A stretch of 63,988 nt of DNA, the filler included, from Asterionella formosa (taxonomy: Eukaryota): the NCBI GenBank assembly GCA_002256025.1. It is 19 parts of 19 records of this genome, joined end to end, with 100 filler letters (N's around TTAATTAATTAA, not from the genome) between each part and the next. Parts side by side here need not be neighbours in the genome. Positions count along the whole stretch, not along the records: positions 6,777 to 10,062 come from NKIB01014284.1; 18 more parts are not named here. One strand, written 5' to 3'. The notes below the pieces were generated by a model. It was not told the DNA's origin, made no database searches, and was given only the letters and a program-made list of their open reading frames with translations. Within the stretch, counting starts at the first letter, position 1; every line of letters begins with the position of its first letter. Made by a program: the position numbers and the translations under genes. Of the stretch, positions 3,389 to 39,353 are shown one piece after another.

Positions 3389-4014
3389 ATGGCACACTTC
3401 CCACAGAGATTGGACTCTTGACAAGTCTCACTCATCTAGATTTGTCCTCTAATACATTCAATGGCACACTTCCCACAGAGATTGGACTCTTGACAAGTCT
3501 CACTCTTCTAGATTTTTTTGCCCATACTGTCGATGGCACAAATTGGATAGGTTTCATTGTTGAAAATTCGTTTGATAATGGAACAGCACTTTCAACTCCT
3601 GGCACCTCACAGGAGAAGGCACTGACATGGGTGCGGCAGAATGCAGAATATAATTTTGCCAAAAACTATATTTTGCAACTATATGGATTGGCAGTGTTAA
3701 ATTATGCCACTGGTGATCTACTTTCAGGCCTATCATGGTTGAAAAAAAGTGGAATCTCTTCTCAATACAATTTTTGTGATTGGGATTACATTTCTTGCAA
3801 GGGTGGGAAAGATATCACTGATTTGACACCTTCTCAGTCTCAACTTGTTGGATCCCTTCCGCCCAAGATTGGACTCTTGACAAGTCTAACTCTTCTAGAT
3901 TTGTCTCACAATATATTCTATGGCACACTTCTGACAGAGATTGGCCTCTTGACAAATCTCAATTATCTAAATTTGTCAAACAATACTTTTACTGGCACAC
4001 TAACAAATCATTGA
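3389..4014 (+). CDS. LRR receptor-like protein fragment (LRR-LRR / Cys N-cap / LRR-LRR), rearranged
   Basis: Plant-type 24-aa LRRs (GTLPTEIGLLTSLxxLDLSxNxF) lie on both sides of a cap domain (TSQEKALTWV...LQLYGLAVLNYAT...FCDWDYISC). Confidence 0.75.
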
Positions 4015-4057
4015 GAATCTCTCACTAACGAAATGAGTCATATCATTTTACGACAAA

Positions 4058-5300
4058 GAATCTATTGATTTTTCATGAAATGCCATAGATGGATCACTAC
4101 CAAGTGAACTGGGTCTATTGACAAGTGTTACAGATTTATATGTACACCAGAATCTGCTTACTGGCCCAATTCCAAAGGAGCTTGGACAGTTGACCAACAT
4201 TACAACATTGTCATTGTATGAAAACAAGTTGACAGGAACACTTCCACCAGAAATTGGCCAATGGGCTAACCTTGTTGTTAAATTGTTTCTACAAAATAAT
4301 GAATTACAGGGAACACTTCCGACAGAGATTGGATTGTTGACAAAACTATCAGCATTGTATATCAACTATAATTACTTCACTGGTCCACTTCCTTCAGAAA
4401 TTGGATATTTGACAAATCTCATTGATTTTAAAGCAAATTCCAACCGTCTCGTTGGCACACTTCCTACAGAGATTGGATACCTGAGAGGTCTAACAACATT
4501 GTATCTATTTGAAAACAAGTTGACTGGTCCACTTCCTTCAGAAATTGGCTATTTGACAAATCTCATTGATTTTGAAGCATTCAGAAACCAGTTCAATGGA
4601 ACACTTCCTACAGAGATTGGATTCTTGACAGGTCTAACAGTATTAGTTCTTTGGGAAAACCAGTTGACTGGTTCGTTTCCGACAGAAATTGGCAATTTGA
4701 AAAATGTTGCAACATTTGATGCAAGCACAAACCTTCTCAATGGAACACTCACAAACCTTCTCAATGGAACACTTCCTTCAGAAATTGGATTCTTGACAAG
4801 TCTAACATTATTGCATCTATTTAATAATCAGTTGACTGGTGCACTTCCAACAGAAATGGGCAATTTGACAAGCATTGCAGATTTTCAAGCAAGCACAAAC
4901 CATTTCAATGGAACACTTCCCACAGAGATTGGATTATTGACAAATCTAACGTTATTGTATCTACAAATTAATCAGTTGACTGGTGTACTTCCGGCAGAAA
5001 TTGGCAATTTGACAATTCTCAATGATTTTGAGATTCATTCCAATATGTTTACTGGTGCAATTCCCACAGAAATTGGTCTCATGTCTTCATTGAGTAAGTT
5101 TTGTTTATCTGAAACTGACATTTTATGACCATTTGTTCTAAAATTTCACTTTCTTGACAGCCACATTATCTTTTGAAAAGAATAATTTTACAGGGCCAGT
5201 TCCAACAGAAGCATGTAATATTACAAAAATACAGAGCATTTTTGTTTGCCCACCACTGATTTGCAAATGTGGTAGCCACTGTTTCACGTATTGTTTTTAA
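4058..5300 (+). CDS. LRR array (about 14 repeats) of a receptor-like protein, possibly pseudogenised
   Basis: ORF 4118-5128 consists of LxxLxLxxNxLxGxLPxEIG repeats. An in-frame TGA sits just upstream (~4076). A probable intron runs from GTAAGT (~5094) to ACAG (5160), followed by a last exon with a Cys-rich C-cap ending ~5300. Confidence 0.8.
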
Positions 5301-5450
5301 TCATTTTTTGCTCTGATGATTTGTGTAGATGCATACTCAATTTATATCTTAAGGCGGCCAGAATTCCATGATAGTAGTAAAATACCAAGCATCTGCTGGT
5401 ATTAATTCGATTCATTTATATAACATTTTAAATATTAGCAAATTGTCTGT

Positions 5451-6538
5451 CTATTTTCTGTCATGGAATCTTGGCATGGCACTGTCTGGTGTTGGCATCG
5501 GCGATTCATCAAAATAAATCGACTTGCTTGCCTGTTGAGCAGTCCATCGTTTACTGGGATCCCACTTCATTAAATTGGAAAATAATGTGAGACCAACTGG
5601 TGATATTTCAGGAAAGCGATCCCACAGTTTTGCAGGTGAAACTTTGGTAGGAAGTTCAATGGTCTCATTTGCAATCAAGGGTAGTTCTGAAATACCTGGC
5701 CATATGGCCTCATGTGGTGTGCCTAGTTCATTGAAGAGTGTTCTGATCATTTCCATCTCTGTCTTGCCAGTCCAAAGTGGTTTTCCCAATAGCAGTTCTC
5801 CCATGAAACAGCCAGCTCCCCAAATGTCGATGGACTCGTTATACCTGGAGGCACCCAACAACAGCTCTGGTGGTCGATACCACAATGACATCACCTTGGG
5901 GGTCAATGGTACTTTTTACTTGCGACTCAGTCCAAAGTCTGCCAATTTCAGCTCACCATCATATAACAATTGGCGAGCTTTAAATCACGATGTAATATGT
6001 TACGAGCATGTATAAATTCCAGCGCTGAGAAGAGTTGCAAAAAGAGACGCTTGACTTGAGGCAGAGAAAACGGTGACTTGCGATGTATCTGATAGTGCTG
6101 ATCAACTAGCTGAGCCAGATCATGAGGGCAGTAGTCAAACACGAGAAAGACAGCTGAGGATGATACTGCCACTGTTTGTAGTCGAATAATGTTTGGATGG
6201 TGTTGGCTGCTTTGGAGCGTAGCAATCTCCCGAAGTGTAGTTATCGGAAACCCTTCAGTGGCTTCCTGGTGAGGTAAACACCGTTTGAGGGCCACCAGCT
6301 GGTTTGTGTGTTTGTCTCGGGCCTTGTACACAATTCCGTATGTTCCTTCTCCAACGCGTCCAATCTTTTCGTATCGTTCTCCCACACTGGGACAACGACC
6401 ATTGCTCAATTTCGGTTTGTTGTCTGTTGGTTTCAACGAAGTGTTCGACACGGAGCTTTCTCTTCTTCGTTTACGATCAGCAATCTTCGTTTTGATCCCA
6501 GAAGCTTCATCTTTTGATTGAGAAGTCAGCACAGACAT
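5451..6538 (-). pseudogene. CDK10: CDK10/CDK11 (PITSLRE-family) cyclin-dependent kinase, disrupted by a frameshift and an in-frame stop
   Basis: Motifs GEGTYGIVYKARD, PITTLRE, HRDLK, LKLADFGL and TPKVMSLWYRPPELLLGA. The frame shifts after ...KLAN (~5970) and a TAA follows DFGLSRK (~5917). Confidence 0.8.
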
Positions 6539-6929
6539 GGGTATCAGATGAATGCATCCATATATGGTGTGGAACGTGCATGTTAATTGAGTAGAATATG
6601 GAGTACAAAATTGCATTCTTTTGACTTCAACTGATAACCCTTCCGTATGTATGTTATGGCAATTCCCGCTCCAGCTNNNNNNNNNNNNNNNNNNNNNNNN
6701 NNNNNNNNNNNNNNNNNNNNTTAATTAATTAANNNNNNNNNNNNNNNNNNNNNNNNNNNNNNNNNNNNNNNNNNNNTAATTTTATATATTTACTGCAAAC
6801 AAATAGGTATTCAATTCCATAGTAGTAGTACTAATAATTGTTACTACTATTTGGGGTTTCGGGAGGCACTCATGATTATCATGTACTCTACTACCGGTAT
6901 ATGGTAGCAACAATTGTGTACATGATAAA

Positions 6930-7075
6930 CTATTGCATTATGTATTCGCAGACAACATTGGTGGGAAACTGGCAATGTTCAGGAAGGTTGGCATAAGAAA
7001 GCCTATTGCATTATGTATTCGCAGACAACATTGGTGGGAAACTGGCAATGTTCAGGAAGGTTGGCATAAGAAAGC
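6930..7075 (+). repeat. Exact 73-bp tandem duplication
   Basis: CTATTGCATTATG...GCATAAGAAAGC at 6930-7002 and again at 7003-7075. Confidence 0.9.
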
Positions 7076-7869
7076 AAGGAATCCGTTGGGGTCTCCTGGA
7101 TCTCCTTCATTGTAGAAGTGTAATCAAATAAATGTTTTGGTGGAATCATTATATGGATGATCAAATGGGGCGACAAAATGGCATCAGATTTAAAAATCGA
7201 CCTGATAATTTTCAACTGCAAAAACTCTCTGGAATGCAGAGCAGTGCTTAGATGCTCTATGAATGTACTACAACTAGTAGCAGAATCATTTGTCCAATAC
7301 TAAGTAGCACAGCATCTGCCTGCAATTGACTTGCATGCAATCATTGTAGCAAATAAAACTATTTTCATTTTAGCTGTTATAGTCTATCATTTGGTGCAAC
7401 CAATATGGTCGAGATGATGAATTGGTTGCCATTACTACTACTCTTAACAACAATGTGAGAATTGAAAATGTCAACGAGAACAAGTCGAATGTGTTTGTTT
7501 ACGGGTTGATTGGCGAGATTGTCATGCTGAAGTGGACGAAATGGATATACTTTGTGCGCTGTGTGCGGAAACATTACGAGTTCGAATGGTTTCTTCTCTC
7601 CTGTAAACTCTGAATTGAATGATTATGAACAAAGGTTCACTGCACATGACAATTACTCGAAGACATAAAGACCAACAAATTGAAGACGTTATCGCAAACA
7701 TTCATTCCGCTTGTCATCGCTAGTATTTCGTTGTTGTTGCAAAAATCGGAGTGATGACGGATGGAAATGACTAACTTCATTGAAGAATTACCATCCATTT
7801 TTGGAAATTTGACCAATCTTTGTAAGTACAGGCAATAACAATTGTGATTCAAGAGTGTGATTGAATACT

Positions 7870-8452
7870 AACAACATTTTGTTGTGACACAGTTGTTATG
7901 GACTTTGGTGACAATGTTTTATTATCTGGAAATATCAGTTCAAATTGGCCTCAGTTGACAAAACTACGTAAGTAAATGAAAAAATTGAAGATTAAAAAAC
8001 CAGCAAATCATTGATTTTTCACATTTTGTACACACTTAATGATTACAGGACATTTGAACTTTGGACATGGAGATCACCAAATTCGAAATGGAAATGATCT
8101 GACTGGAAAAATTCCAACTGAGCTAGGTCTCTTGTCAAGCTTAACATTCTTATCATTGGGTCCTAATCGGTTAACTGGCACACTTCCCACAGAGATTGGA
8201 CTCTTGACAAGTCTCACTGATCTACGTTTGTATTTCAATACTTTCACTGGCACACTTCCCACAGAGATTGGACTCTTGACAAGTCTCAATTATCTAGATT
8301 TGTCTTACAATACTTTCACTGGCACACTTCCCACAGAGATTGGACTATTGACAAGTCTCAATTATCTAGATTTGGCCAATAATACTTTCACTGGCACGCT
8401 TCCTGCACCATTCAATTCCTTGAACCCTGTTTCTTCACCAGCTTTTGTATAG
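7870..8452 (+). CDS. LRR protein 3' part (about 5 LRRs), upstream exon degenerate
   Basis: ORF 8039-8452 contains near-identical 72-bp LRR units. A probable intron runs from GTAAGT (~7968) to ACAG (~8048). The upstream exon reads CDTVVMDFGDNVLSGNIS. Confidence 0.75.
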
Positions 8453-8531
8453 AGTTAGGGTATGTGTATGTGTGAGGGCTACAATGACTATTATCAAAGC
8501 GACGATGGGTGACTACTTAAGTTGCCAAGGG

Positions 8532-8615
8532 TTAGTGTTAGGGTTAGGGTTAGGGTTAGGGTTAGGGATAGGAATAGGGAAAGAGAGAGGGAGAGGGATA
8601 GTGATAGGGATAGGT
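8532..8615 (+). repeat. Interstitial telomeric repeat (TTAGGG)5 decaying to ATAGGG/AGAGGG
   Basis: Five perfect TTAGGG copies at 8538-8567, flanked by variant hexamers. Confidence 0.85.
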
Positions 8616-8805
8616 AGAGTGGAGATTGGACTATTGACAATTTTTACTGATCTACCGGTATATTTGTTGAACAATACTTTTTTCCTTTGGAGATGTAACT
8701 CAAAAAAGCGCAAGACAACCAGCCAAAGGTTACAAAGGCGAAATCAAATAGTTAGTTTGCATAACTTTTTTTTAAGCAAAAACATGTTTATCGCAATGCA
8801 CTTAC

Positions 8806-9766
8806 TCATTCTTTCACTTAGAACTGCTACTTCTGGAGGAATGGATCCAACAAGACCTTCACCACTGAGTTGCAGTGATGTTATAAATGTTCCATTGCAA
8901 CCAATTCCTTTCCAATCACAAAAGTTGTAGTTGCCATATTCATTTGGTTCTAGCCATTTTTCATAAGTATTTGATTGAGACAGAGTACTAAGCCATGTTT
9001 TTCCAAATGCTTCAAAATAGATTACCGCCAAAACATAGTGTTGGAGCAAGTTGAAATCAATTTCAGGGCTTTGCTGTGGTATTAGCTTCTCTTCTAACCA
9101 TGACATGGCCCTATATTGAGATGTGCCAGCAGTTTCAAGTGCTGCACCATCATCAAATGCATTGTCAGCCAAGTAACCAAACAAATTTGAAGAAGGGCTT
9201 TGTGATGGAATATCTGTTGGAGTCATTGTTGGAATATTGCTTGTTGTTGGAGAACCTGTTGGTGCTAATGTGGGGTTAGGGGTTTGTTCAGGTCTTGTGA
9301 GCTGAATGGGAGTTGCAATGATTGTGACTAACAAGCCAATTACCAAGAAAAGCACCAAGGCCATCCGCACTTGACGTTTACATTGAGCTTTTTCTTCAGC
9401 TTCAATGTCAACAACAGAGGCTCTTGCAAGTTCTGGATCAACCACTAGCTCAGCATTGAATAGTGTTGTATGTTCCAGCTGGCCATCGTAGGTGTCAATA
9501 GCAACATTGTCATTCACATAAGAATTGTTCTGTGAAGATGTCACTAATCCCAGTACTGGAAATGCACCAGGAAGTGTCTGTTGTGGTGGTGGTGGTGGTG
9601 GTGCTACAACTTCTTGATTCGGAACTCTTGTTGGTTCCATCAAAGACACCTCGCATTTTTTCGCTGCAGTTGTTGCATCGCTCAACTTTAACTCCCATTG
9701 TATCTTGTCATGTAGGGTGAGGAAGTGGCGCCATTGCAGTTGCAACTGGTATTGCAGCGTCGCCAC
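8806..9766 (-). CDS. Single-pass (type II) LRR receptor-like protein, first exon(s); LRR array missing
   Basis: PGAF motif, TM helix (MALVLFLVIGLLVTIIA), Pro/Thr stalk, cap domain (SQYRAMSWL...LLQHYVLAVIYF...FCDWKGIGC) and a first LRR (GLVGSIPPEV). A GTAAGT donor follows at ~8805. The 5' region up to ~10026 appears frame-disrupted. Confidence 0.75.
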
Positions 9767-10162
9767 ATATCATAGTGTCATGGTATCTGGTAAGTAGAAG
9801 TTGCTTTGTTGTTGGGAATGGAAGATTGCCTGCTCGCTTGTAACATGTTGCCATTGTTTTCGTTTGTGCCGCTGTCCACTCTGTTGACTGTTTGTTCAGA
9901 GTTCTGATTGCCGCTGTGTGTGCATCTATTTTCTTATACTCTCGCTCACTCTACACTTCTTCCGCACGCCTCTTCCTTATCAGCTCTTCATCGACCACTT
10001 CAAAAGTTACCTCCCTGCAGCAACATGAAGACCGGCTGTGTATTGTTTAGGTGACCGTTCCANNNNNNNNNNNNNNNNNNNNNNNNNNNNNNNNNNNNNN
10101 NNNNNNTTAATTAATTAANNNNNNNNNNNNNNNNNNNNNNNNNNNNNNNNNNNNNNNNNNNN

Positions 10163-17442: not shown

Positions 17443-17568
17443 AACATGACTAGCTAACAAACCATTCCTTCTCATTGTAACTGTAACAGCATGCATAGGA
17501 AAATAAACATGACTAGCTAACAAACCATTCCTTCTCATTGTAACTGTAACAGCATGCATAGGAAAATA
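17443..17568 (+). repeat. 63-bp tandem duplication
   Basis: AACATGACTAGCTAAC...GCATAGGAAAATA occurs twice in tandem. Confidence 0.9.
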
Positions 17569-18189
17569 AAAACAATCAAACAACGGAATAGTCGGCAAGT
17601 TCAGAATGACACTTACAGCAGGGAAAGAGACGCAGCATCAGTAGGGCACTGCCTCGCACACGATTCAGATCAGAGGAAGACAGAGCGAGAAAGGGATATA
17701 CATTGAGCCGAGTAGAGAGAGAAACGTTGGGTCGCTGGCATGTAGATTAATAGATAGCATTGCTTAATTTGATAGTTAAATTACGATCCATTTCAATCTA
17801 TTTTGAGCAATGCTTGTGATTAGAATTATGATCATGTTTACAATAGATTTACGATGAAACAATTCACATGATAGCATAGAGTTGAGCTGGTTTCCAGGAT
17901 ACGTTGTAGTTATAATTTACATCGGGCGATCACGAGAAGTGAAAATAATATGAGAAGGTTTATGATATTGATGGGAAATGTTGTTGATCAGTTTATATAC
18001 ATTGTGTGATGATAATGTTCTTATTATCATTATACTTCAAGGTCGGTAACATATTAATAAATCATCATAGATACAAGATACCTTGATCATATTTTTGATC
18101 CAAAAATTATCATATATACAAAAATCCTGTGCCACTTAGCGTACGATACCTGTGATCATATTTTCATGATTTTTTTTATTTACAGACGT

Positions 18190-18947
18190 GGGCCACGATT
18201 TGGACGCCAAGGCAGAAACTAACCCCAAAAAGTGTCAAATGTGTCGTGCTTGGATACAGCCATGACCACGCCAGTGATACCTACCGCATGTACAACGTTG
18301 CCACGAAAAAGGTCTTCAACACAAGAGACCTTAAATGGGCCGACTGGCATGGAAATGCCAAACCGACAGCGGACATGGACGAATTCACCACAGACGGATC
18401 CGGTATAGATGAAGAATTTGACACTCTTACTAAACCTTCCAACGCAATACCTCCTGACGAACAAGGGGCTGATACGCAACTACCAACGAAACCGGACGAT
18501 CCCAGTACTCCCAAAGGAGTGAGCTTTGCAGATTCCGTCGCAGGTGGTATGAATACGAACGAGCATCATACGAATTATGCTACGAAATCTACAAAGCTAG
18601 ATCGAGAAATGAATAGGCTATCAACAGGCCTTGTGACCTCGCCTACACCTACTCGTGTAGGTACACGTCAGCACTCATCCGCAGCACGCACGCTTATTTT
18701 GGATGACGACACGAATGAAAACCTCGAAGAGCACCAACCTAACGAGGAAGCACATTCAACGAGCCTAGCTTCTGACCCACTGGAACCCAAGAGCTACAAG
18801 CAGGCACTACTAAGTAACGAAAAAGACGAATGGACCAAGGCAATCAAAGCTGAGATTGAAAACTTCTACTCCCGCAAAGTGTGGAAACTACATCCTCGTA
18901 AGAATCTAAATGGACGAAAGCCACTTGGAGCAAACCAATTGTTATAA
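18190..18947 (+). mobile_element. Ty1/copia (CoDi-like) pol fragment: post-integrase SH3, linker and start of RT
   Basis: KCVVLGYSHDHASDTYRMYN and EPKSYKQAL...WTKAIKAEIENF...VWKL; truncated abruptly. Confidence 0.85.
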
Positions 18948-20315
18948 ACTTATATCTAATCATGGCATAGCCTTAAAGCGTACATGCTCAGGATTAGGGT
19001 CGAAGTTTTAAAATTAGCAAATCTGCATTTGCTAGGGTCGAACCGTGTTTTTCTCCTGTTCAGTGGGTCACAGCGGTTCCAAATTTGTTTTAGTGGGTCA
19101 CAGCAGTTTTTTACTGGTACCAGGGAGTACCAGGTACCCCCAGCAGTACATACGACGACAAATGATTCACAGAACAGGATCAAACAAACATGCGGTTTGT
19201 ACAAGCGTCGTCTTTTCTTGATAGTCCAATTTTTGGGGAGACAAAACTCCCTATTTTTCTGCCCTGATTAAGAAGCCATTATCTTTTACAGCTATTCCGT
19301 AGAACCTGGCTGGTGTCTCGTACCCCTTTACTTAGAGGGGAGTACAAAACATTGGACCTTTTTTGATCGTCAGACATTATGAAAAAGCAAACTTCAACGT
19401 TTCTTCATTTTCTAAAACATAAATAGCTCTATTCAAAGCAATGTTCATCAATATATTTCCACCAAAAGTCGACTACTATAGATATGGCTTTGATTTTGAT
19501 TACTAACGAGGAAAATCCAAGTGGACTACTCAAAAGGCAGGTGCAAAAAGGATTACTTCCATATTTCCCTTTTTTGGAACTCGTTTTCTTCTCCATTAAT
19601 CTTGTTGCGTTGTTGCGGGTTTGAGCATGTGAATTTCTCTGTACGTCTTCCATAAAAAAAATTTTATATATATAAATATAAATATATATACATATATATA
19701 TATACATATATAATTTCACATTCAGAAGTTTCTGGTTTAAGATGTTTCTGGTTCATTCATTCAAGACAACAGAGCCCATAATTGTTGATATGGTTATTCA
19801 GTCTTTCAAGTATTGTGGAAATATACCAAGTGGCTAACTCATAGGGTTAATTTTCCCATTGTTAACATGAGCCATTATATTATTTGTTGAACATTTATGA
19901 TAATGGGGAATAATGGATGGGACAGTATTATAAAATACTTTCCCGGTATATCATACTGTTGATCGATACGATCATCTTGAACTGGCTGGATCATAGAAGA
20001 AAGGTGAAATAAAAGGAGGCAGAATCTGCTTACATATTTTGGATGTATAGTAATAAAACAGAAAGAAAAACGTATAATATATAGATTCGGTGTTACTTTC
20101 CCCTTTGCTAAGGGAGTGATAGTGAGGAGGGCAGTATTTTATGTGACTTTTCACTGCTGTTTTCGAAAGGATCCCACACCAACCCGCAGTACCTGTTGTA
20201 GAAAATCAAATCAAANNNNNNNNNNNNNNNNNNNNNNNNNNNNNNNNNNNNNNNNNNNNTTAATTAATTAANNNNNNNNNNNNNNNNNNNNNNNNNNNNN
20301 NNNNNNNNNNNNNNN

Positions 20316-22445
20316 AAAGTTCAAAACTTGACTCATCAACAGTTATCGCACTCAGTTTTGAAACATTTTGCTCCTTGTGCCACGTCCATTCGGTTTGCTT
20401 CGAACGATGCAGTGCCTGATGAGGAAGTAAACGAGAAGAAAGCACCGGAATTGCTCGAGTTTAAAGCAGAGACTAAACAGTTATTGGACATTGTGACGAA
20501 CGCACTGTACACCGACAAGGAGGTTTTTCTTCGAGAGCTCATCTCCAACGCAAGTGATGCGTGCGAGAAGCTGCGACATATTCAAGCATCAGCACAGGAA
20601 ACCACTGTGGACCCGGACGTGCCTCTCGAGATTCACATCGAAACAGATGAAATTGCACAGACACTGACCATTAGAGATACTGGCGTTGGTATGACTCGAA
20701 ACGAGATGAAAGACAACCTTGGAACAATTGCCAGGTCAGGTTCCAAGGCCTTTATGTCTGAACTGGCTCGCAGCTACAAGGAAGGAGAAGTTTTGGATGT
20801 CCAACGAGGAATCATTGGAAAGTTCGGTGTGGGTTTCTATTCTTCTTTCATGGTTGGAAATAAGGTGGAATTCCGATCCAAGTCGGCTTTTGAAAAGAAT
20901 AAAGACCAACTCCCGAAGGTATGGAGTTCGGAAGGAACCGGCTCCTATGAGATTTCAGATTTGAACGACGACATTAGACAAGATCGAGGATCTTCCATCG
21001 TGATTCATTTGAAAGACGCTCAGATAGAATATTGCGATGAATCAAGAATTGAGAAGATCTTGATGAGATATTCCAACTTTGTCAACTTTCCCATATCCCT
21101 CAATGGTAGGATTGTCAACACTCAAAAAGCTGTATGGGCCATGGATCCAAAGGAAGTCGACGAGGACACATACACTGCGTTTTACAGGTACCTAGCCAAC
21201 GCTGTTGATGTCCCTTTGGATACAATTCATTTCCGTGCAGACGCACCATTGGATGTTAAGGCCTTGTTTTTCATACCATCATTTCATGCGGAGAAATACG
21301 GGATGGAACGAATGCAACCGGGAGTGAACCTATATTCACGTAAGGTGTTGGTTGAAGCCAAGTCACCAGATATTCTCCCTGACTGGTTAAGGTTCCTAAA
21401 AGGAGCTGTAGACTCCGAGGATTTACCTATTTCCATATCGCGAGAGCGTGCCCAAGACAGTGCCTTGATCAAAAAACTTCAAAAGGCATTGACAAGGAAA
21501 ATCATTTCTCACCTGACCACCATGGCCAAGAAAGACCTAGACAAGTACAAATACCAATTTTACAAGGAATACGCCTACTTTTTAAAGGAAGGAATTTGCC
21601 AGGACCATGAATTTCAAGAGCCGCTTAGCAAACTGTTGTACTTCGAAACTTCGAAGGGTAAGAAGAACCAAACCGTTTCGTTTGATGAGTACATCTCTCG
21701 TTGTGCACCAGAACAGAAGGAGATTTACTATCTCCATGTTCCTTCTCGAGAAATGGCTATTGAAAGTCCGTATCTCGAAGCATTCACCAAGGTGGGGCGA
21801 GAAGTGATATTTGTCTACACCCCCATTGATGACTTCGTTATGGCTAACCTCAAGAGCTTTCAAGGCCGCAATATTGTTACCATTGAAAAGAGTGGTATTG
21901 ATCTTGGCAATGATATGAAAAAGGAAAATGAGGATTCAAATTCCCATCCAGAGAAATTGTCTACCTCAGAAGCAGATGAGTTTTGTGCCTGGTTTAAAAT
22001 GACGCTAGGCAACGACAAAGTTAGTAGCTGTAATATAACCTCTCGTTTGGTTTCGTCGCCCGCAGTCGTTGCCAACAACGAATCAGGGGCTATGCGAAAG
22101 ATGATGCGTATGGTAGACACAACAGATGGCACTGGTGACTCTGATCTTCCGAAACAGCAAGTTGAGATCAACCCCGGGCATCCCATTATTATTGGAATCA
22201 ACGCAATCAGAGAAGCGGAGCCAATCCTTGCTAAGGTTGTTGCTGAGCAAATCTTTGATAATTGTTTAATGTCTGCTGGACTACTCGACGACGGAAGACA
22301 GATGATTCCTCGTCTTAATGACATTTTGCTCACAGTGATAAAGGACGCTAAGGTGCACGTGGAAGCCGTGAATCCAGGGAAGGACTCAGAAGTTGCTACC
22401 CCAATTGAAGTAGAAATTGTCAGTGAGAGCATGAATCAAAGCTAA
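20316..22445 (+). CDS. TRAP1: Mitochondrial Hsp90 (TRAP1/Hsp75), 5' end truncated
   Basis: EFKAETKQLLDIV, KEVFLRELISNASDA, NLGTIARSGS, IIGKFGVGFYS, GAVDSEDLPISISRE and EINPGHPII. Short charged linker, no MEEVD/KDEL, and an N-terminal transit-like remnant. Confidence 0.93.
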   Translation, partial: KVQNLTHQQLSHSVLKHFAPCATSIRFASNDAVPDEEVNEKKAPELLEFKAETKQLLDIVTNALYTDKEVFLRELISNASDACEKLRHIQASAQETTVDPDVPLEIHIETDEIAQTLTIRDTGVGMTRNEMKDNLGTIARSGSKAFMSELARSYKEGEVLDVQRGIIGKFGVGFYSSFMVGNKVEFRSKSAFEKNKDQLPKVWSSEGTGSYEISDLNDDIRQDRGSSIVIHLKDAQIEYCDESRIEKILMRYSNFVNFPISLNGRIVNTQKAVWAMDPKEVDEDTYTAFYRYLANAVDVPLDTIHFRADAPLDVKALFFIPSFHAEKYGMERMQPGVNLYSRKVLVEAKSPDILPDWLRFLKGAVDSEDLPISISRERAQDSALIKKLQKALTRKIISHLTTMAKKDLDKYKYQFYKEYAYFLKEGICQDHEFQEPLSKLLYFETSKGKKNQTVSFDEYISRCAPEQKEIYYLHVPSREMAIESPYLEAFTKVGREVIFVYTPIDDFVMANLKSFQGRNIVTIEKSGIDLGNDMKKENEDSNSHPEKLSTSEADEFCAWFKMTLGNDKVSSCNITSRLVSSPAVVANNESGAMRKMMRMVDTTDGTGDSDLPKQQVEINPGHPIIIGINAIREAEPILAKVVAEQIFDNCLMSAGLLDDGRQMIPRLNDILLTVIKDAKVHVEAVNPGKDSEVATPIEVEIVSESMNQS

Positions 22446-23589: not shown

Positions 23590-23701
23590 CTGCGTGGAAT
23601 NNNNNNNNNNNNNNNNNNNNNNNNNNNNNNNNNNNNNNNNNNNNTTAATTAATTAANNNNNNNNNNNNNNNNNNNNNNNNNNNNNNNNNNNNNNNNNNNN
23701 A

Positions 23702-26700
23702 CCAGGCACATGCAATACAGAGACTCTATGTGGCCAATGTGTGTGGGCCCGAAACGCATGCCAGGTAGAAACAAGGTGGCTTGGGTATACAGAAATTGGT
23801 CAGACTCATGTGGTCCGCACTGTTGGAGAAACACGACGTGCCCCAAGGATCGTGGCAGAGCGTGAGGCCGAGCTGCTCTTCTTCCCAACTTTGGATGCCC
23901 AGCCAACAGTGTCGCCGTCCTCAGCTCCCACTGCAACAGTGAATCATGTCTTTGGTCTTGAGTTGATTGGAAATTTTACTGTTGATCTTGTTAACGCTTC
24001 CAATGTTTGGGGCAGTGGATACCCAAGCAACAAAACAAGATTGATCGAACCATCAACAGAGTATTACATTCCTGGAAATATCAACGATATCGACATAAAT
24101 TTTGATTTGCAGGCTCAGCGCACCATCCAAGGTGTTGCGGTCCAAATTTGGTACTACAGTGAAGTTCAGTCGATCCAGATTGGCGTGCGCCGTGATGGCG
24201 GCACTACTTGGACGTTGTTTAATGGAGGATCCGCAACAAGCCTCAATCAACGAGTCACCATTACTATCCCCAAAACTGCTGCCCGATATGTATCGATCCG
24301 TTTGCGGGGAGGAACTTATAATGGTGTTTTTGACACAACGAAAAAGTGGGGACTTCGTCAGGTTCAGATCAGCGGAAGTTTGGATGGCTCGTTGGTCGAC
24401 ACAGGAACAAACACCACACGCAGTCCAAGTGCCAAGCTTGCATTCATCCCAAGCCAGTCAGCCATTGTCATGCTTGATGTTTTCAACCAGTCGGGGGCGC
24501 TGCTAGGGACAATGCCAGTTCGCAACCAAACATTGCAACGCCCGCTCTTGGAACAGGCTTTGGTCACATCGAAACTTGATCCTTACAGCTTGATTGATAT
24601 GTGGAGTGTCACGATTCCTTGGCGTTGGATGAAGGAAGGAAACCAACTTCGCATTTCTGTCAATCATACACTAAGTGGCAAAATTCTCACTCACTCGCAC
24701 ACCCTGAGCTATTTGGTGCAATGGGGAGAGCACACCTTCATCCGAACCAAGGTGGCAATCTTCGGCAATTCCACTGACATTGCTAGTCTTAACTCATTTA
24801 CTTATGGTGCCTCAAAGCTGGCAACAGGTATGTTTGCAGCAATGCCGTTGGCGACACTTAGCTGGGTTGACTCTGAGTTGTGGCACTTGCCATACCTAGT
24901 TGTCGCTACAGCAAATGGGGCAAGGCTTGTCCGCAGTGAAGCAGAGAGGAGGCAGGCATTCATTGATGCTGGACAAACAGATTATGGAACTGAGCCACAG
25001 TGGGAAGTGTTAAAGAATCAATTAACCTTTCGCCATTCCATGGCCAACGTAGGGAGGGGCTTTGCTGAAACAACTGATGACGAATACACTCCATACGCTT
25101 CGCAAACTTCAATCTTTATGGGTTGGTCTCTTACTGGTCAGCAAGCTGACGGAAGCGTTTATTGGGATTACTTGGGTTATTGGGATGGGTGGACTGCTGC
25201 CGCTTGGACAGGCTGGTGTGCCATGGCACCAGGTGATGAGTGCGGCAACGCGTTAATTCATGAACTTGGCCATTCACAGACAATGGAACACTTTACGTCT
25301 GGTACATCAGTGAGCTGGGGTATTGCTGATGAGTATCCAATGGACGGAGTCAATACAAAATTCAATCCCTGGGGATATGATACAGTCTCCCGTAGATTTC
25401 GTACGTGGTACAACCCATATACCAACGATGGGAAGAATGATCCAATGAATGGCGGAGAAGACCCAAACTCCGAGACTTGTTTCCCACAGTACACTGCCTA
25501 CCACGCCCAGAAGTCTCAAAACTGGGCAAAAGCATCACCAGTGCTTCTGTCATCAAAGACTTCCGGGGTACCAAGTGATGGAGCATACTTGTTCAATGAA
25601 GCAACTCGCAACTACGACAAGGTAACAGATGCTCAAGTTGTTTCTCTTGTTGATAGCTATGCTATGCCACCTGTAAAGGTCGGTGTTCCCGTTCTCACAT
25701 TTATTGGAACACTGGGAAAATTGTTGGAAACTTGCCAAATCTACCCTCCAGTGCGCTCCAGTGCTGGGAATACATTCCGATTCCCGGATCCATTTGATCT
25801 TACTCTTGTGGCTTCCCTGTTCAGTGGTGCAAGGTACTATGTTGAAGTCACCTATGCCACTGGAACCAAAATGAAAGGTTTAGTTGCTGTGCCAGACCTT
25901 AGTAGCTCCACTGCTACTCGTTTCTTTTCCTTCAATATTGCGATTGCTGATCAACCCACCAAAGTTGACTTGTATCGCTACAATTCAGTTTCGTATCCTA
26001 ACATTGTGTCTACCAGTGCTACAACTCTTCTTTTCACTCGCACCATCAACCTTCCTGCTCAGCCTTTGGATGGTATTGCTGCAACGGTGAAGGTTGGTCG
26101 TGGATGGCTTGGTGAATCAGGAGACATTGATATCTCCAAAATCTGTATCTCCGATCTAGACTGTGAGGAAAAGTCCACTGTCTTGAAGTGGCGTGGAACT
26201 GAATCCATTTCTTATTCTTCGGTAGTCCCATCATCAAATCTTGGTAACAGGAGTGCCTTTAATATTACAGTGACTCGTATGGAAGACAAGAGCACATCAG
26301 TACTTACTGTTTTGGCGACACGCTTCACCAACGAGATTTCTGCTTCACTGCTCAGCTCTCTCCCATCACCAGTTGCCGCTGACTCCACTCATGGAGTGAA
26401 GTTTTGGATCCCATATGATCTCAACTCTGCATTTTCATTCGGGACCTACAAGGCCCTCATTCCTGCTGTGACAGCATCCAACCCAGATGGCAGTCGCTTT
26501 GCCGACCTTCGAGTCAATTTAAATCTATATATTCCCCAGGTTACTGCCACTGTGAATTTGACAAAAGGGTACACTAGCCCAGGTTACACTGCACCTGGTT
26601 CATCGGCTTACTTCTTGGTCACAGACCCATCAGTCGGACCCACGACTAGTGAGTGGTGGGGTGGTGATTCAACAAGTCTTTCAGTCCCTCTGATTTCCTT

Positions 26701-26984
26701 CAATTGCAACAAAAAGATGGTGAAGGCTTCAATCATTGGAACTCAGACATCTTGTTTTTGGGGAGGTGCAATTTGGCAAATGAATGCAGGACGAAGCGCC
26801 GATAGCTGCGCACACTTTTTGATGCTCACGTTGGCCTCCTCAAGTTTAAATACATGGATGATTGATCCAACCTTAAAAGGGTGTAAGTTTGAGACGCACC
26901 CAATAAACCCAATTCAAGTCAATGCTCATCGTTGGCATGATCCCAATGGTGATGCAGTGATTGGCCGTATGGTCCTCAAGATGG
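23702..26984 (+). CDS. Peptidase M66 family zinc metalloprotease (StcE/TagA/dictomallein-like), both ends truncated
   Basis: Open across the whole contig (~1094 aa). EIGQTHVV...PRIVAEREAELLFFP N-domain, zinc motif HELGHSQTMEH (25259-25291), WGYD...RRFRTW, Met-turn DPMNGGE, and a GVPVLTFIG...QIYP C-domain. Confidence 0.8.
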
Positions 26985-33849: not shown

Positions 33850-36800
33850 ATTGTTGATGGGGACACCATCAGCTACATAGGATTCGTAATTGATACTGAA
33901 AGCAATGATGACATTTCTTTTTCAGTTGTTGATACAAGAAAAATGGCTCCTGTCGATGATACCATTAATAACTCCCAGATGCAGATGGACGACATGGTAC
34001 CATATCATAAATTTTCTAATTGCACGGACCAACACATACATGACAAACTGAGGGAAAAACATTTTGCACTTGCCAAAGGATATTATCAATTGGTCAATGA
34101 AATCAATCACTACAAAGGTTGAAATTCGGTTCAAAACTCGTCCATACGAGGTTATCAAGAATATTCAATTTCAGCAGCCTTATCAGAACGTCGTTCTAAA
34201 TTGAACCATCAATTGTCACACAGGTTGTGAGTTTCATTTTCAAGACCAAGAAGTTTTGCTGTGAACGTGTAAGTTTGATGTTATAGTTCGTGAATCATTG
34301 CAGGTACTTTAAAACAGAATATCAATCTCATGTGCTTTTTTCTGGTCCCAAAAGAGAATCAAACATCCCGCCCTGCCTATCTGGTACAAGTAGTATGAAA
34401 GGTATTTCCAATCACAAACAGGATTGGTTTGCCCAATGTTGACCTGCCTAACTCGGCTATACACAGTGAAACCGGAGTTAGGCAAAGAAGTGGAGAGTGA
34501 CCTAGAGCTTGCCGACTTTATATGGAATGGTTCTGATGCACTTCTTCCGATGAATCAGACCATTGAACGTACCAACAAGGCATGTTTAGATTACATCAAA
34601 TCAACAATTGGCATGTGCATTAAAAAGTTGAGAGAATGTCAGAATGTATTGAATAATCAATTTAAAGGAATCTTAGGTAAGTTCTTGCAGGGAGATGCTC
34701 TGAAAGCATGACGTTTTGAGTCGGTGATTATAATCTTATCAAATATGTTTCAATTTAAAAATGCTAAACTAATTCATGACATACCAGCTGGTCTAAGAGA
34801 ATATAGCTAACTTCCAAACTATGGATATTGATGACTTTATGAGGTGGGCGTTCACGCTTTATCGTTTTGCGCAGTCAAAGGACATTGACAGGGGAGGCCA
34901 AGGCTACCAATACTGGCGTGATGTTCTTGCTTCATTCATTTTTGCATCATGGATTTTACCAAGAAAACATCAGTTGAGAGAATGTCAGAATGTATTGAAT
35001 AATCAGTTTAAAGGAATCTTAGGTAAGTTCTTGCAGGGCGGAAGATGCTCTGAAAGCATGATGTTTTGAGTCGGTGATTATATTCTTATCTAATATGTTT
35101 GAATTAAAAGTGCTAACATAATTCATGACACACCAGCTGGTCTAACAGAATATAACTTCCAGGCTATGGATGTTTATGACTTTATTATGTGAGCGTTCAC
35201 GCTTTATCGTTTTGCGCAGTCAAATGACATAGACAGGGGAAGCCAAGGATACCAAGTCTGGCGTAATGTTCTTGCTAGGAAGGACAAGCCGTGGAGAACC
35301 GTTTTTAACAGGAGAAAATCTGGTGTGACCAAATTTCAACTAAGTCTTGGGGAACAGTGTGAATTGCAATCACGTTTTGTTGGTTCGCTGATCAATGCCA
35401 GTACAGAAGCCTTTTGCTTCTTGGTGCTGAAAGGAAAATTCCGATTGCAACAAAAATATTTGGGTTTCAATCCAGATACTACGCATGAAATTTCAGAGAA
35501 CGATATTCGTCATTCTACTGATTCTATCGACATTGGTGGGAAACCACTTATCAAAAAAGTGTGAGGGAAGAAAGTTCAGTTTCAAATGGTCTCACTGATC
35601 AATGAACTGATGATAATGATTTACTCGGTTATTATAAGGAAATCTACACTGGACTTTCTCAAAAGAATCGATCGGAATATGGAAGGAATCCTAGAGGAAT
35701 TGCTACTTCCACAACAAATATCATCTACCCACACTCATACTTGTTCTCATTTCCCAATGTAAGTGAAGAGGATATGTGTCAATATGTTGAACCACTTCAA
35801 CCAAATGTTCCTGAGAAGAATATTGATTACAATGAACGCATGAATCAACGGGACATTGATGACGACGTTGATTTTGAATGGATCTAATAGAATCCAATGC
35901 ATGCTTAGTAGTTACATAATAAATATAGTTAGTGTGAGACTTCTACAATGCACAAACCATATCATAGATGTTAGGAAAACATTGATGTTGGTCTATACTA
36001 CTAGTAGTGCCGCCTGTACTGTATGTAGCGGTATACCTCCATTTTTACTACTATGGTGGAGTGATAATTTCACGACTCTGTATTGTCCAGCACAGCATGA
36101 TCGGAGTGATGCTAAATTTATCATTATATATTCATTCATTTTCATTCTATCCTGTTCATTTCCTGACTTTGTCATCATTTGAAATTTGCAATGTCTTTGC
36201 GGACATTGCAATGGTGTTATCTGCATAACTACAAATTTCGGAAGAACAAATCCCCATCTGAGTCTCACAACCGAAATTGTAGCAACCGTGTTTTCTATGC
36301 ATATGGTCACTGTCGACATTGCATGCAAGAACATCGAGTTCCTGTAATACATAATGAAACTATGTATTGCGGTAGTGCGCGCATCGAATCATTCAAGGAA
36401 AGAAGTTAATGGCAGTGTAACTGCTGCAGCATTTAGGGAGAGTAGACAACAAGAAGAGATTATGTGTCCTATCCTTGAATCAAGTGGCCACAATCATCCA
36501 TTTCATGACGACAGCGACGATTCAGTTTATAACAATATTCAGTAACAACAAGACAAACAATTGAGACTAATACCTCTCCAAGGATTGAATTCAGAAACCA
36601 TGCAATATACAGTTTTTCAAGATCATACCTGCTTTCTCCCTGAAAATGCAATGGAAATGCCCCTTCCTCGGCTCCTCAATTTCAACATCCAAGTAAGCAT
36701 TCTCTAAACATACGCGCATCCAATCGAATTAGAACTCATGATATTCCTTAACGAGAACTACCTACCTTCCACCAGTTTACTTTGATCATCTAATGAAATG

Positions 36801-38087: not shown

Positions 38088-39353
38088 CTAGCCACTCACA
38101 GATGTCTCATCTTCCCCCTGGTTGGAGTCTTCATCATCATCGCGCCCTTCCATGATACTGGCCAGAGCGTTCGATAGGGAAATGGCATCAGTGGCTTTCC
38201 CCTGTGGTTTCTTGGTACCTTTAGTAACAGTAGGAGTAGTTGCTTCATTGAGGTTGCACTCCTTGGCGGAATGCATTTTCCACAATGCATGGTTGGTGCA
38301 CCAATGATACTCCTTTGTGTCCACTGTCTTGGTCTTCGCATCATTCTCCTTTGGTGGCACTAATTTCCAGGCCCATTTCTTAGCCAGTTTAGCCTTGCGA
38401 GCATGTTCCTTTTTGTCATTCTTGTTGTCCTTCACAGGCTTGTCGGTCTTGAAATATTCCAGTTTCGCTGTGAGTGCGACAATCTGTGCCTCCAACTTAG
38501 CATCTTTAGCAGATGGTAAATTACACTTCTTAGACTCCACAAGCATCTTATATTTATTTAGGGCCAGGTCCATCAACGAATACACATCAAAATCCACCCG
38601 TCCATCGTGATACTGATCCTGCTGACCAATCATGTAATCATGGAACACTTTATCCTCCACAGCATCGTATGCTGTAAACAGATTTGTCATTAGGTCAGAA
38701 GAAAATTCCCCACGAGACATAAGCGCGTCACGTTGCACATGGACATGGAGGTTTAACTTCTCAATGTTGCAGTCCACTGATAACATGTATTCATCCAACA
38801 CGCTGAGGGTACGGCGAATAGTTGCCACCGTGGATCGTGTATCGTCCATGCATCTCGTAATGAGAAGTTTCAAGAGTGCAGCACCACTTGCCACCACGAA
38901 TGTAGGGGCTGTAGGTGACGTAAGACGATAGGCAGATGCGTCTGTAGAAACCTTGAGCAGGGCCTCCATGGAAAGCGAGTCGTAAATGCACGTAAACAAC
39001 TGCACATTGTTCTGTGCATCATGCGTCTGGGAATGAACATGTGTGGCTGCGTGAGCAACCACATTTGCCATGGTGACCCTTCCATATTCGGTGATCAGGT
39101 TTCGCCCAACATTGTGGTCATCAGGGACCGTGAGGATGGAAGCCAATCCAAATGCGTCGGCTCGTTGCTGCAAGGCTTGAAGAAAAAGGCGGAGGCTTCC
39201 AGTTTCACCATCGAAGTTATGATTGAGTTTTTCGGTTGCAGACTTGTACAATTTCATCGCTTCATTTGAGTTGTAATCAACGGGATCAGGATTTGCGAGA
39301 GCTGGGGTTAGAGCAAAGACGAAAGCCGCATGGGCGTTGGGAGCTTGAGCCAT
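38088..39353 (-). mobile_element. Intact gag-like ORF (421 aa) of a diatom LTR retrotransposon (copia-like)
   Basis: FALTPA...DY...LY...FDG N-terminus and a C-terminal WAW...KEYHWCTNHALWKMHSAKEC knuckle. PBS-like TGGTATTGAAG at ~39839-39849 on the minus strand. A decayed homolog lies at 45495-46190. Confidence 0.7.

What the first reader, a model, noticed from the sequence alone, without database searches (positions are those of the whole stretch)
8160..8400. 72-bp LRR cassettes with a fixed nucleotide framework and variable concave-face codons, shared across contigs
Seen: units at ~8175, 8247 and 8319, and at 3389 and 3461 in a different contig, share a near-invariant ~40-nt block (TGGCACACTTCCCACAGAGATTGGACTCTTGACAAGTCTC), synonymous sites included; units at ~3870-3990 are slightly more diverged. 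The differences cluster in the xxLxLxxN codons (THLDLSSN, TLLDFFAH, TDLRLYFN, NYLDLSYN, NYLDLANN, TLLDLSHN, NYLNLSNN). Established: these x positions form the ligand-binding concave face of LRRs. Inference: a homogenised framework with variable binding codons suggests a cassette-shuffling or gene-conversion system that diversifies recognition receptors, analogous to brown-algal LRR shuffling or lamprey VLRs.
Basis: partly seen in the sequence, partly recalled or inferred. Interest (0 to 1): 0.75.

Follow-up and report, generated by a model that had tools for sequence, protein, structure and literature searches.

The report
Fast-evolving diatom-type LRR receptor repeats
These are the 24-residue leucine-rich repeats of a large, expressed family of surface receptor-like proteins in a probable freshwater diatom; the repeats were copied recently and natural selection keeps changing only their binding-face residues, a pattern well known from plant immune receptors and not a sign of an antibody-like shuffling machine.

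Summary
The 40-nt framework occurs 5 times in the window (4 exact, 1 with one synonymous change; 0 expected), in two separate assembly pieces (3389-6676 and 6777-10062). Among those five units, 17 of 18 variable sites lie outside the framework (Fisher p=1e-6).

The units are plant-type 24-residue LRRs (Pfam, PDB and a model). They form the last exon of a spliced, transcribed gene.

In 40 consecutive units from the window and six metagenome loci, the five xxLxLxx codons have pN 0.53 against pS 0.23 in the other codons (ratio 2.3, bootstrap 1.8-3.1). Third positions are barely raised. This points to selection on amino acids, not local hypermutation.

The framework is not fixed family-wide (pS 0.23; 0.51 in an older array). 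The identical units are therefore a young subfamily.

Arrays grow by duplication of blocks of 1-4 units, and one candidate mosaic unit suggests conversion. Nothing shows a programmed or somatic system. The repeats are not one-per-exon as in brown algae.

Verdict: real, and a new member of a known kind. Interest is modest.

The parts
7767..7821 (+). First exon of the + strand ORF as it stands in this contig (ATG at 7767). Similarity to intact relatives L006/L001 begins only at 7771, inside their third exon, so this copy lacks the N-terminal membrane anchor and cap.
   Evidence: Stops lie just upstream of the ATG.
7822..7892 (+). Intron, 71 nt, GTAAGT..CAG.
   Evidence: An RNA contig of run X19 skips it, with 6 differing letters at the acceptor side, so it may come from a close paralogue (tables 5 and 5c).
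7893..7967 (+). Second exon (irregular LRR).
7968..8048 (+). Intron, 81 nt, GTAAGT..CAG.
   Evidence: An RNA contig joins 7967 to 8049 with GT..AG ends in polyA run X19.
8049..8452 (+). Last exon with the LRR array and the stop codon. The spliced ORF is 177 aa.
   Evidence: Pfam LRR_1, LRR_14, LRR_8 and LRR_4 all score above their cut-offs. The model has mean pLDDT 89.6.
8105..8176 (+). Older-type LRR unit (GKIPTELGLLSSL...), more than 9 of 39 mismatches from the framework.
8177..8248 (+). Unit 1, exact framework, variable part TDLRLYFNTFT.
8249..8320 (+). Unit 2, exact framework, variable part NYLDLSYNTFT.
8321..8392 (+). Unit 3, framework with one synonymous change, variable part NYLDLANNTFT.
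8393..8449 (+). Degenerate partial unit that forms the C terminus (GTLPAPFNSL...).
   Evidence: Relatives end differently (...NGSVPQDL/F).
8622..8697 (+). Untranslated degenerate LRR pseudo-unit downstream of the stop, 96-97% identical to the same tail in L004 and L006.
3389..3534 (+). Two units with exact framework at the very start of the neighbouring contig (THLDLSSN, TLLDFFAH). The contig begins inside the repeat.
3850..3993 (+). Two more diverged units (8 and 4 of 39 framework mismatches) directly after a cap-like Cys domain (3535-3849).
4091..5095 (+). Older array of 14 units with a two-unit (144-nt) super-repeat. The framework is diverged at synonymous sites.
   Evidence: 12 of its units measured.
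8806..9640 (-). Exon 1 of another family member: cytoplasmic N terminus, one hydrophobic span (aa 94-112), a Pro/Thr/Ser linker, a Cys-containing cap and the first LRR. It is 96% identical to L001. Nothing on its own strand follows it.

Best explanation
The 72-bp units are plant-type 24-residue leucine-rich repeats. They form the extracellular part of a large germline-encoded family of type-II membrane LRR receptor-like proteins in a eukaryote that is most probably a diatom. The typical member has an N-terminal cytoplasmic part, one membrane span, a Pro/Thr linker, a Cys cap, a variable number of LRRs and a short tail.

The units with the identical framework are a young subfamily. Arrays grew recently by tandem duplication of blocks of one to four units (unequal crossing-over), with occasional conversion between units.

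Since then, selection for new amino acids has changed almost only the five solvent-exposed xxLxLxx positions (plus positions 22 and 24). Purifying selection keeps the rest.

Shown here: the repeat anatomy, the clustering of differences, pN above pS at the x codons, splicing and transcription, and the large copy number. Inferred: the selective agent (a variable ligand such as parasite, bacterial or mating molecules) and the recombination mechanism.
For: (1) Family. Pfam LRR_1, LRR_14, LRR_8 and LRR_4 score above cut-off on the exon. phmmer gives E 2e-117 to 8e-90 against plant LRR receptor-kinase ectodomains GSO1, FLS2 and PEPR1. In the AF2 model (pLDDT 89.6) strands fall on unit positions 15-17 and a helix on the PTEIGL part of the framework.

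(2) Selection. In 40 consecutive units of 7 arrays, the five x codons have pN 0.531 and pS 0.306, and the 17 other codons pN 0.090 and pS 0.232. The ratio pN(x)/pS(other) is 2.27 (bootstrap 1.78-3.12), and 0 of 300 replicates fall at or below 1.

(3) Selection, not local mutation. Diversity by codon position in x codons is 0.57/0.60/0.29, against 0.12/0.07/0.20 elsewhere.

(4) The whole unit is young, not only the framework. Conserved codons 16, 18, 21 and 23, interleaved with x codons, have pS 0.254, against 0.233 for the framework.

(5) No nucleotide-level constraint on the framework. The older array at 4091-5053 has pS 0.51 in its non-x codons.

(6) Block duplication. Near-identical variable halves lie 144 or 288 nt apart in L002 and L005 and 72 nt apart in L003. 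TRF reports periods of 144 and 168.

(7) Large expressed family. At place 8225, 74 DNA contigs of run X1 and 41 RNA contigs of run X19 carry another letter. Summed contig depth in the LRR bins is about 25-100 times the flanks in X9 and X4. Intergenic bins have RNA depth 0, and a GT..AG intron is skipped.

(8) Stable germline order. L001 and L006, from two samples, are 96.2% identical (871 of 905) with the same first three units.

(9) Context. Tandem-duplicated LRR families are reported in the diatom Seminavis (PMC7335047, passages). Two LRR receptor-like genes have Ka/Ks above 1 in Pseudo-nitzschia (PMC5485032, passage).
Against: The rate ratio between the two halves of a unit is not constant. 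Of 171 unit pairs with 0-1 framework differences, most differ at 6-13 of the 33 other sites. Yet some pairs with nearly the same variable half differ more in the framework (10 against 2; 4 against 2; 3 against 1). A simple clock with positive selection does not predict this, so some conversion or recombination inside units is needed.

Within-array and between-array diversities are equal (pS 0.233 against 0.225). Duplication within arrays is therefore not the only source of similarity.

The units pooled come from metagenome contigs of unknown species and may mix orthologues, alleles and paralogues.

Pairwise pN/pS on 72-nt units with possible recombination is crude, and no tree-based site model was run.

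The assignment to diatoms rests on language-model look-alikes only.

Short-read assemblies can mis-join units that share 40 identical bases, so unit order in any one contig is not secure.
Confidence: 0.75

Rival explanations
1. Passive cassette exchange. The long identical framework serves as the homology tract for frequent ectopic gene conversion or unequal crossing-over among tens of units. This could occur in meiosis or in the long clonal (mitotic) phase of diatoms. Old variable halves would be reshuffled and frameworks homogenised, and recombination rather than point substitution would be the main source of receptor diversity.
For: One candidate mosaic: L006 unit 927 has the canonical framework but the variable half of unit 711 (2 of 33 differences), whose framework differs at 10 of 39 sites (Fisher p=0.03). 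Within-array diversity equals between-array diversity. P0004 is identical to the window gene for 83 residues and then carries a different next unit. Mitotic interhomolog recombination is reported in diatoms (bioRxiv 10.1101/2020.11.08.373134, listing and start of abstract only).
Against: Conversion tracts cannot skip single codons. Codons 16, 18, 21 and 23 between the x codons are as conserved at synonymous sites as the framework. Third positions of x codons are close to background (0.29 against 0.20), so the variable halves are not old. The P0004 difference may be a paralogue or an assembly path.
Confidence: 0.13
2. A programmed, VLR-like somatic assembly. Incomplete receptor genes would be completed in individual cells by copying LRR cassettes from silent donor arrays, using the framework as the short homology.
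For: The contig holds an exon-1-only copy (9640-8806, minus strand) and, facing it, a 5'-truncated array without anchor or cap. An untranslated pseudo-unit follows the stop (8622-8697). The neighbouring contig joins LRR units to a cap domain in an unusual order. Contigs of runs X9 and X4 leave the window sequence at 7771 and 8697.
Against: Fragments and pseudogenes are usual in fast-evolving LRR clusters. The truncated array starts beside a high-copy dispersed repeat (7453-7770) and may be a transposon-associated break or an assembly chimera. L001 and L006 show an intact germline gene with the same unit order in two samples. No cell-to-cell variation was or could be observed. No deaminase or recombinase was sought, because no genome is held.
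Confidence: 0.05
3. Assembly artefact. The identical framework and the unit order come from collapsed or chimeric short-read assembly of a repeat family.
For: Contig 2 begins exactly inside the framework. Logan contigs break at the framework, for example X4 record 18 ends at 8200. Contig 3 departs from contigs of other runs at several points.
Against: The exact 40-mer stands in 6 independently assembled metagenome contigs. It is also in DNA and RNA contigs of the four runs that were laid. Fourteen runs hold half or more of the 2-kb stretch. The framework sequence itself is therefore real, and only unit order is in doubt.
Confidence: 0.04
4. Targeted hypermutation of the x codons: a retroelement-like adenine mutagenesis or a deaminase hotspot.
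For: The x codons are mostly NNT with variable first and second bases, which superficially resembles AAY-templated diversification.
Against: Of 13 highly variable sites, 6 have consensus A and 7 have C, G or T. Eight of 21 A sites are nearly invariant. Third positions of x codons are near background. No template repeat or reverse transcriptase lies beside the arrays. Retroelement-like ORFs elsewhere in the window were judged by eye only.
Confidence: 0.02

Closest known systems
Plant LRR receptor-like proteins, receptor kinases and R-gene LRR domains under diversifying selection (such as Cf-9/Cf-4-type RLPs; these gene names are recalled, not from a call)
   Same: The repeat is the same 24-residue plant-type consensus. 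The best solved relatives are GSO1, FLS2 and PEPR1 ectodomains. Hypervariable xxLxLxx positions show pN above pS. Repeat number varies, and there are fragments and pseudogenes. The combination of point mutation, repeat-number change, duplication and rearrangement is described for plant resistance genes in PMC3341825 (introduction passage).
   Different: The topology differs: N-terminal membrane anchor with the LRRs at the C-terminal outside, no kinase seen on these contigs, and a cap domain with no Pfam match. The organism is a probable diatom. No function is known.
Ectocarpus ROCO / NB-ARC LRR-TPR exon shuffling (Zambounis et al. 2012, PMC3341825; brown-alga ROCO follow-up PMC11378527, listing only)
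   Same: It is a stramenopile. Positively selected sites lie on the concave LRR face, gene turnover is fast, and 72-nt / 24-residue units exist there too (passages).
   Different: There each repeat is its own exon, and shuffling of exons is the proposed mechanism. Here four full units and a partial one are contiguous in one exon. The proteins are membrane LRR proteins, not ROCO or NB-ARC.
Lamprey variable lymphocyte receptors
   Same: LRR modules have a conserved scaffold and variable concave residues, with short identical stretches that could guide copying.
   Different: Intact germline genes with full arrays exist here (L006/L001). No somatic assembly, no incomplete germline locus and no deaminase is shown.
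Tandem-duplicated LRR families of diatoms (Seminavis robusta genome, PMC7335047; Pseudo-nitzschia multistriata, PMC5485032)
   Same: LRR-containing proteins are among the main tandem duplicates in a diatom. Two LRR receptor-like genes have Ka/Ks above 1.
   Different: The passages I read in those papers do not describe per-repeat framework identity or site-specific variability. I did not read their supplements.

Membership tests
Leucine-rich repeat proteins, plant-specific 24-residue type | Repeat of 24 residues with LxxLxxLxLxxNxLxGxIPxx-like consensus | tested here: met
   The units read GTLPTEIGLLTSLxxLxLxxNxFx, period 72 nt.
Leucine-rich repeat proteins, plant-specific 24-residue type | Profile match to LRR families above curated cut-offs | tested here: met
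   On the 133-aa exon: LRR_1 50 bits (cut-off 20.6), LRR_14 42.5 (40), LRR_8 31 (27), LRR_4 31.1 (27). PDB phmmer gives E 2e-117 to GSO1 for the contig-2 array.
Leucine-rich repeat proteins, plant-specific 24-residue type | Solenoid with one short beta strand per repeat at xLxLx | tested here: met
   In the AF2 model (pLDDT 89.6) the strands are residues 33-35, 57-59, 81-83 and 105-107, which are unit positions 15-17. Helices fall on T-E-I-G-L. Solvent exposure itself was not computed.
Plant-type LRR receptor-like protein or kinase architecture | LRRNT_2 N-terminal cap, C-terminal transmembrane helix, with or without a kinase | tested here: not met
   The exon-1 protein has no Pfam family. The hydrophobic span lies N-terminal of the LRRs (aa 94-112, KD 2.77). 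No kinase is on these contigs. The repeat type is shared, but the architecture is the anchor-first one also seen in P0003.
Brown-alga LRR exon-shuffling families (ROCO, NB-ARC) | Each repeat encoded by a separate exon | tested here: not met
   Units 8105-8449 lie in one exon (8049-8452). The only introns are 7822-7892 and 7968-8048.
Brown-alga LRR exon-shuffling families (ROCO, NB-ARC) | Positive selection on concave-face residues | tested here: met
   pN(x5)/pS(other) is 2.27, bootstrap 1.78-3.12.
VLR-type somatic cassette assembly | Incomplete germline gene plus silent donor cassettes | tested here: inconclusive
   An exon-1-only copy and a truncated array exist in contig 3. However, intact genes exist too, and the contig may be rearranged or chimeric.
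VLR-type somatic cassette assembly | Different assembled receptors in different cells of one individual or clone | not testable with these tools
   Only Logan contigs were available. They break at the framework.
Diversity-generating retroelement-like mutagenesis | Variation confined to template adenines | tested here: not met
   Of 13 highly variable sites, 7 are not A. Eight of 21 A sites are nearly invariant.

The most novel reading that the evidence does not exclude
The framework is kept identical because it is used. Tens of units sharing 39-45 identical bases would form a recombination substrate. During long clonal growth of the diatom this would generate new receptor arrays at a high rate, by mitotic conversion or template switching between expressed genes and truncated or silent arrays such as the two in contig 3. 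The result would be a unicellular, lineage-level analogue of VLR-type repertoire generation, perhaps in arms races with parasites.
Probability: 0.06. Interest if true: 0.8.

Novelty: new member of a known kind. Interest (0 to 1): 0.33.

Why it matters
Diatoms are attacked by strain-specific parasites and live with specific bacteria, yet no recognition receptors have been established for them. This last statement is my own knowledge. My four searches on diatom LRRs found no paper describing site-specific hypervariability of diatom LRRs.

A large, transcribed family whose predicted binding-face residues evolve about 2-3 times faster than silent sites is a concrete candidate for such receptors. 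The stretch with this gene is also held in many freshwater metagenomes and metatranscriptomes, so the family could be followed in natural populations.

The mechanism itself, duplication plus diversifying selection, is textbook. The value lies in candidate genes and not in a new principle.

Tried and rejected
Whole-genome census: no genome is held for this window, so the count of all framework copies could not be made. I used one metagenome scan (6 loci) and contig laying instead.

Summed contig depth is, by the tool's own warning, not a copy number. I use it only as a hint of tens of copies.

Logan contigs break at the repeated framework, so unit order could not be compared between runs X1, X9 and X4. 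Cover of the telomere-like stretch was skipped by the tool.

Protein searches. The exon-1 protein found only 2 weak longer relatives. The cap domain found 7 unnamed proteins. The exon search gave 471 hits, but only four in the listed table (best 120) are at or above 76% identity. None gave a species name for this organism.

Earlier-findings look-ups gave nothing for this genome or sequence. A word search returned two analogous cases in other genomes.

Rfam and tRNA scans of the window found nothing.

The table of 28 'young' units was dropped from testing because the units were chosen by framework similarity.

From the 55 framework-like windows I kept 40 consecutive full units. I dropped the run-offs into C termini, the tail pseudo-units, the truncated unit at the L001 contig end and the two other L001 units, and the six detected units of the older contig-2 array. 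That older array was measured separately from coordinates: 12 units, leaving out the 75-nt unit at 4235 and the last unit at 5054.

The DGR-like reading was considered and rejected. No tree-based site model (codeml or HyPhy) was available.

Full report
WHAT THE WINDOW IS

The 63,988 bases are not one locus. They are 19 assembly pieces of about 3.28 kb, joined by N44-TTAATTAATTAA-N44 spacers. The finding lies in piece 3 (6777-10062). The 'different contig' is piece 2 (3389-6676), which begins inside the repeat. No whole genome is held.

The DNA is eukaryotic. It has short GTAAGT..CAG introns that are skipped in RNA contigs of a polyA library.

The nearest protein clusters by language-model features are from Bacillariophyta. 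This is the only evidence for 'diatom'. The 2-kb stretch around the finding is held, at half or more of its words, in 14 runs, mostly freshwater, lake and river metagenomes.

THE OBSERVATION

The 40-nt framework occurs at 3390, 3462, 8176 and 8248 (exact) and at 8320 (one synonymous change). Zero matches are expected by chance. TRF reports a 72-bp array at 8174-8403 (3.2 copies, 92%), plus 72-bp arrays at 3389-3540 and 3866-4001. All seven quoted peptides are present.

Among the five near-identical units, 1 of 39 framework sites varies against 17 of 33 in the second half (p=1.1e-6). Of the sites in the seven x codons, 14 of 21 vary, against 4 of 51 elsewhere (p=7e-7).

ANATOMY

On the + strand there is a three-exon ORF of 177 residues: 7767-7821, 7893-7967 and 8049-8452. 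Its last exon holds one older-type unit, three framework units and a degenerate C-terminal unit.

- Pfam LRR_1, LRR_14, LRR_8 and LRR_4 match above cut-off.
- The array of piece 2 matches plant LRR receptor-kinase ectodomains at E 2e-117 (GSO1), 9e-108 (FLS2) and 8e-90 (PEPR1).
- In an AlphaFold model of the exon (pLDDT 89.6), each unit has a strand at positions 15-17 (x-L-x). A short helix falls on the T-E-I-G-L of the framework. The variable codons therefore flank and fill the strand, and the framework encodes the helix and loops between strands.

Similarity to intact relatives (L006, L001) starts only at 7771, inside their third exon. Just upstream lies a high-copy dispersed repeat at 7453-7770. 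Its summed contig depth in run X9 is 254-681, against 1-25 nearby. This copy therefore lacks the anchor and cap.

On the minus strand, 9640-8806 is exon 1 of another member. It has a cytoplasmic N terminus, one hydrophobic span (aa 94-112, KD 2.77), a Pro/Thr/Ser linker, a Cys-containing cap and the first LRR. It is 96% identical to L001, but it breaks off in intron 1. A full-length relative, P0003, shows the whole architecture: long N terminus, anchor, cap, many LRRs and a Cys-rich end.

EXPRESSION AND FAMILY SIZE

In polyA RNA run X19, a contig joins 7967 to 8049 (GT..AG), and another skips 7822-7892. Contigs reach the unique 3' end (at least 8507). Intergenic bins 6997-7436, 7657-7766 and 8537-8756 have depth 0. 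The gene, or a copy at least 90% alike, is therefore transcribed and spliced.

At place 8225, just after the framework, 74 DNA contigs (X1) and 41 RNA contigs (X19) carry another letter. Summed depth in the LRR bins is about 25-100 times that of the flanks in X9 and X4. The tool warns that this is no copy number. I read it only as 'tens of units, not a handful'.

WIDER SAMPLE

One scan of metagenome contigs for the exact 40-mer gave 6 loci. With the two window pieces, they hold 55 windows within 9 of 39 mismatches of the framework, of which 11 are exact.

To avoid choosing units by their framework, I took 40 consecutive full units from 7 arrays:

- Five xxLxLxx codons: pN 0.531, pS 0.306.
- Codons 22 and 24: pN 0.407.
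- The 17 other codons: pN 0.090, pS 0.232.
- pN(x5)/pS(other) = 2.27 (bootstrap 1.78-3.12), with 0 of 300 replicates at or below 1.

By codon position, diversity is 0.57/0.60/0.29 in x codons and 0.12/0.07/0.20 elsewhere. A local rise in mutation would lift third positions as much as first and second. It does not, so the excess reflects selection for amino-acid change.

Highly variable sites are not adenine-specific: 6 are A and 7 are other bases, and 8 of 21 A sites are nearly invariant. This excludes a retroelement-like mechanism.

IS THE FRAMEWORK HOMOGENISED?

Not as such, for three reasons.

- Across the 40 units the framework's silent-site diversity is 0.23, not zero.
- Conserved codons 16, 18, 21 and 23, which sit between x codons, are as little diverged (0.254) as the framework. 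Conversion tracts cannot skip single codons.
- The older array at 4091-5053 in the same piece has pS 0.51 in its non-x codons, so nothing forbids silent change.

The identical units are therefore a young subfamily.

Growth is by blocks. Near-identical variable halves lie 72, 144 or 288 nt apart in L003, L002 and L005, and TRF sees 144- and 168-nt periods.

Some exchange inside units is nevertheless likely.

- L006 unit 927 has the canonical framework and the variable half of unit 711 (2 of 33 differences), whose framework differs at 10 of 39 sites. This runs opposite to the family trend (p=0.03).
- Within-array and between-array diversities are equal.
- P0004 from another assembly is identical to the window gene for 83 residues and then has a different next unit. 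That could be a strain difference, a paralogue or an assembly path.

AGAINST A PROGRAMMED SYSTEM

L001 and L006, from two samples, are the same gene (96.2%, 871 of 905) with the same first three units. Intact germline genes with full arrays exist.

The brown-alga model requires one repeat per exon (PMC3341825, abstract and passages). Here the units are contiguous in one exon.

Somatic variation could not be examined, because only contigs were available and they break at the framework.

The truncated array and the exon-1-only copy in piece 3 are suggestive. They are equally expected as debris of a fast-evolving cluster. Contigs of X9 and X4 also leave the window sequence at 7017, 7185, 7771 and 8697, so the piece may be strain-specific or chimeric.

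LITERATURE

- LRR-containing proteins are among the main tandem duplicates in Seminavis robusta (PMC7335047, passages).
- Two LRR receptor-like genes have Ka/Ks above 1 in Pseudo-nitzschia multistriata (PMC5485032, passage).
- Mitotic interhomolog recombination is reported in diatoms (bioRxiv 10.1101/2020.11.08.373134, listing only).
- Four searches found no paper on site-specific hypervariability of diatom LRRs. Subscription journals are not covered, and I did not read supplements.
- Two earlier notes of this scan on other genomes reached similar 'ordinary recombination' verdicts. I treat them as parallels, not support.

VERDICT

This is a real and statistically strong pattern. The best explanation is recent unit duplication plus diversifying selection on the binding face, in a large, expressed, probably diatom LRR receptor-like family, with some conversion (confidence 0.75). 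It is a new member of a known kind. Interest is 0.33. A recombination-based repertoire generator is not excluded (about 0.06).

Noticed in passing
window 8528-8614: There is a telomere-type repeat, (TTAGGG)5 at 8538-8567, running into degenerate AGGGAT-like units. It sits between the stop codon of the LRR gene and the downstream pseudo-unit. The relative L006 has only a 9-10-nt TAGGGTTAG seed in the same flank. It could be an interstitial expansion or a healed break. The read-laying tool skipped it.
   Followed up: partly
window 6777-10062 (piece 3): The piece is a mosaic relative to other data. In L001/L006, exon 1 and the LRR exons are colinear on one strand, whereas here they face each other. 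Contigs of runs X9 and X4 diverge from it at 7017, 7185, 7771 and 8697. A 39-nt segment (8697-8735) is inverted relative to L006. It is either a real rearrangement or an assembly chimera.
   Followed up: partly
window 7453-7770: A high-copy dispersed repeat lies directly upstream of the truncated LRR gene. Its summed contig depth is 10-50 times the neighbours in three DNA runs. Ninety X1 contigs continue past 7771 into another, shared sequence. It is possibly a transposon end.
   Followed up: partly
window 3389-4090 (piece 2): Two framework units run in frame straight into a cap-like Cys domain that normally precedes LRRs. Two more units follow, then a stop at 4012-4014. No GT donor is visible before the next array, which starts after a CATAG acceptor-like site near 4088. 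This could be a fused or fragmentary gene.
   Followed up: no
window 4726-4773: A perfect 24-nt tandem duplication inside the older LRR array adds 8 residues in frame (LLNGTLTN LLNGTL...).
   Followed up: no
window 23701-26984 (piece 8): The whole piece is one open frame of 1127 residues, open at both ends. Its G+C is higher than most of the other pieces (0.475), and it has an HELGH zinc-protease-like motif. It was not searched against any family.
   Followed up: no
window 20268-22445, 41559-42698, 18156-18947, 38088-39512: Other pieces carry, judged by eye only, an HSP90-family ORF, a WD40 G-beta-like ORF and retrotransposon-like gag or integrase ORFs.
   Followed up: no
window 6930-7075, 17443-17570, 34626-35276: There are perfect or near-perfect two-copy tandem duplications of 73, 63 and 345 bp in non-coding-looking DNA.
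   Followed up: no
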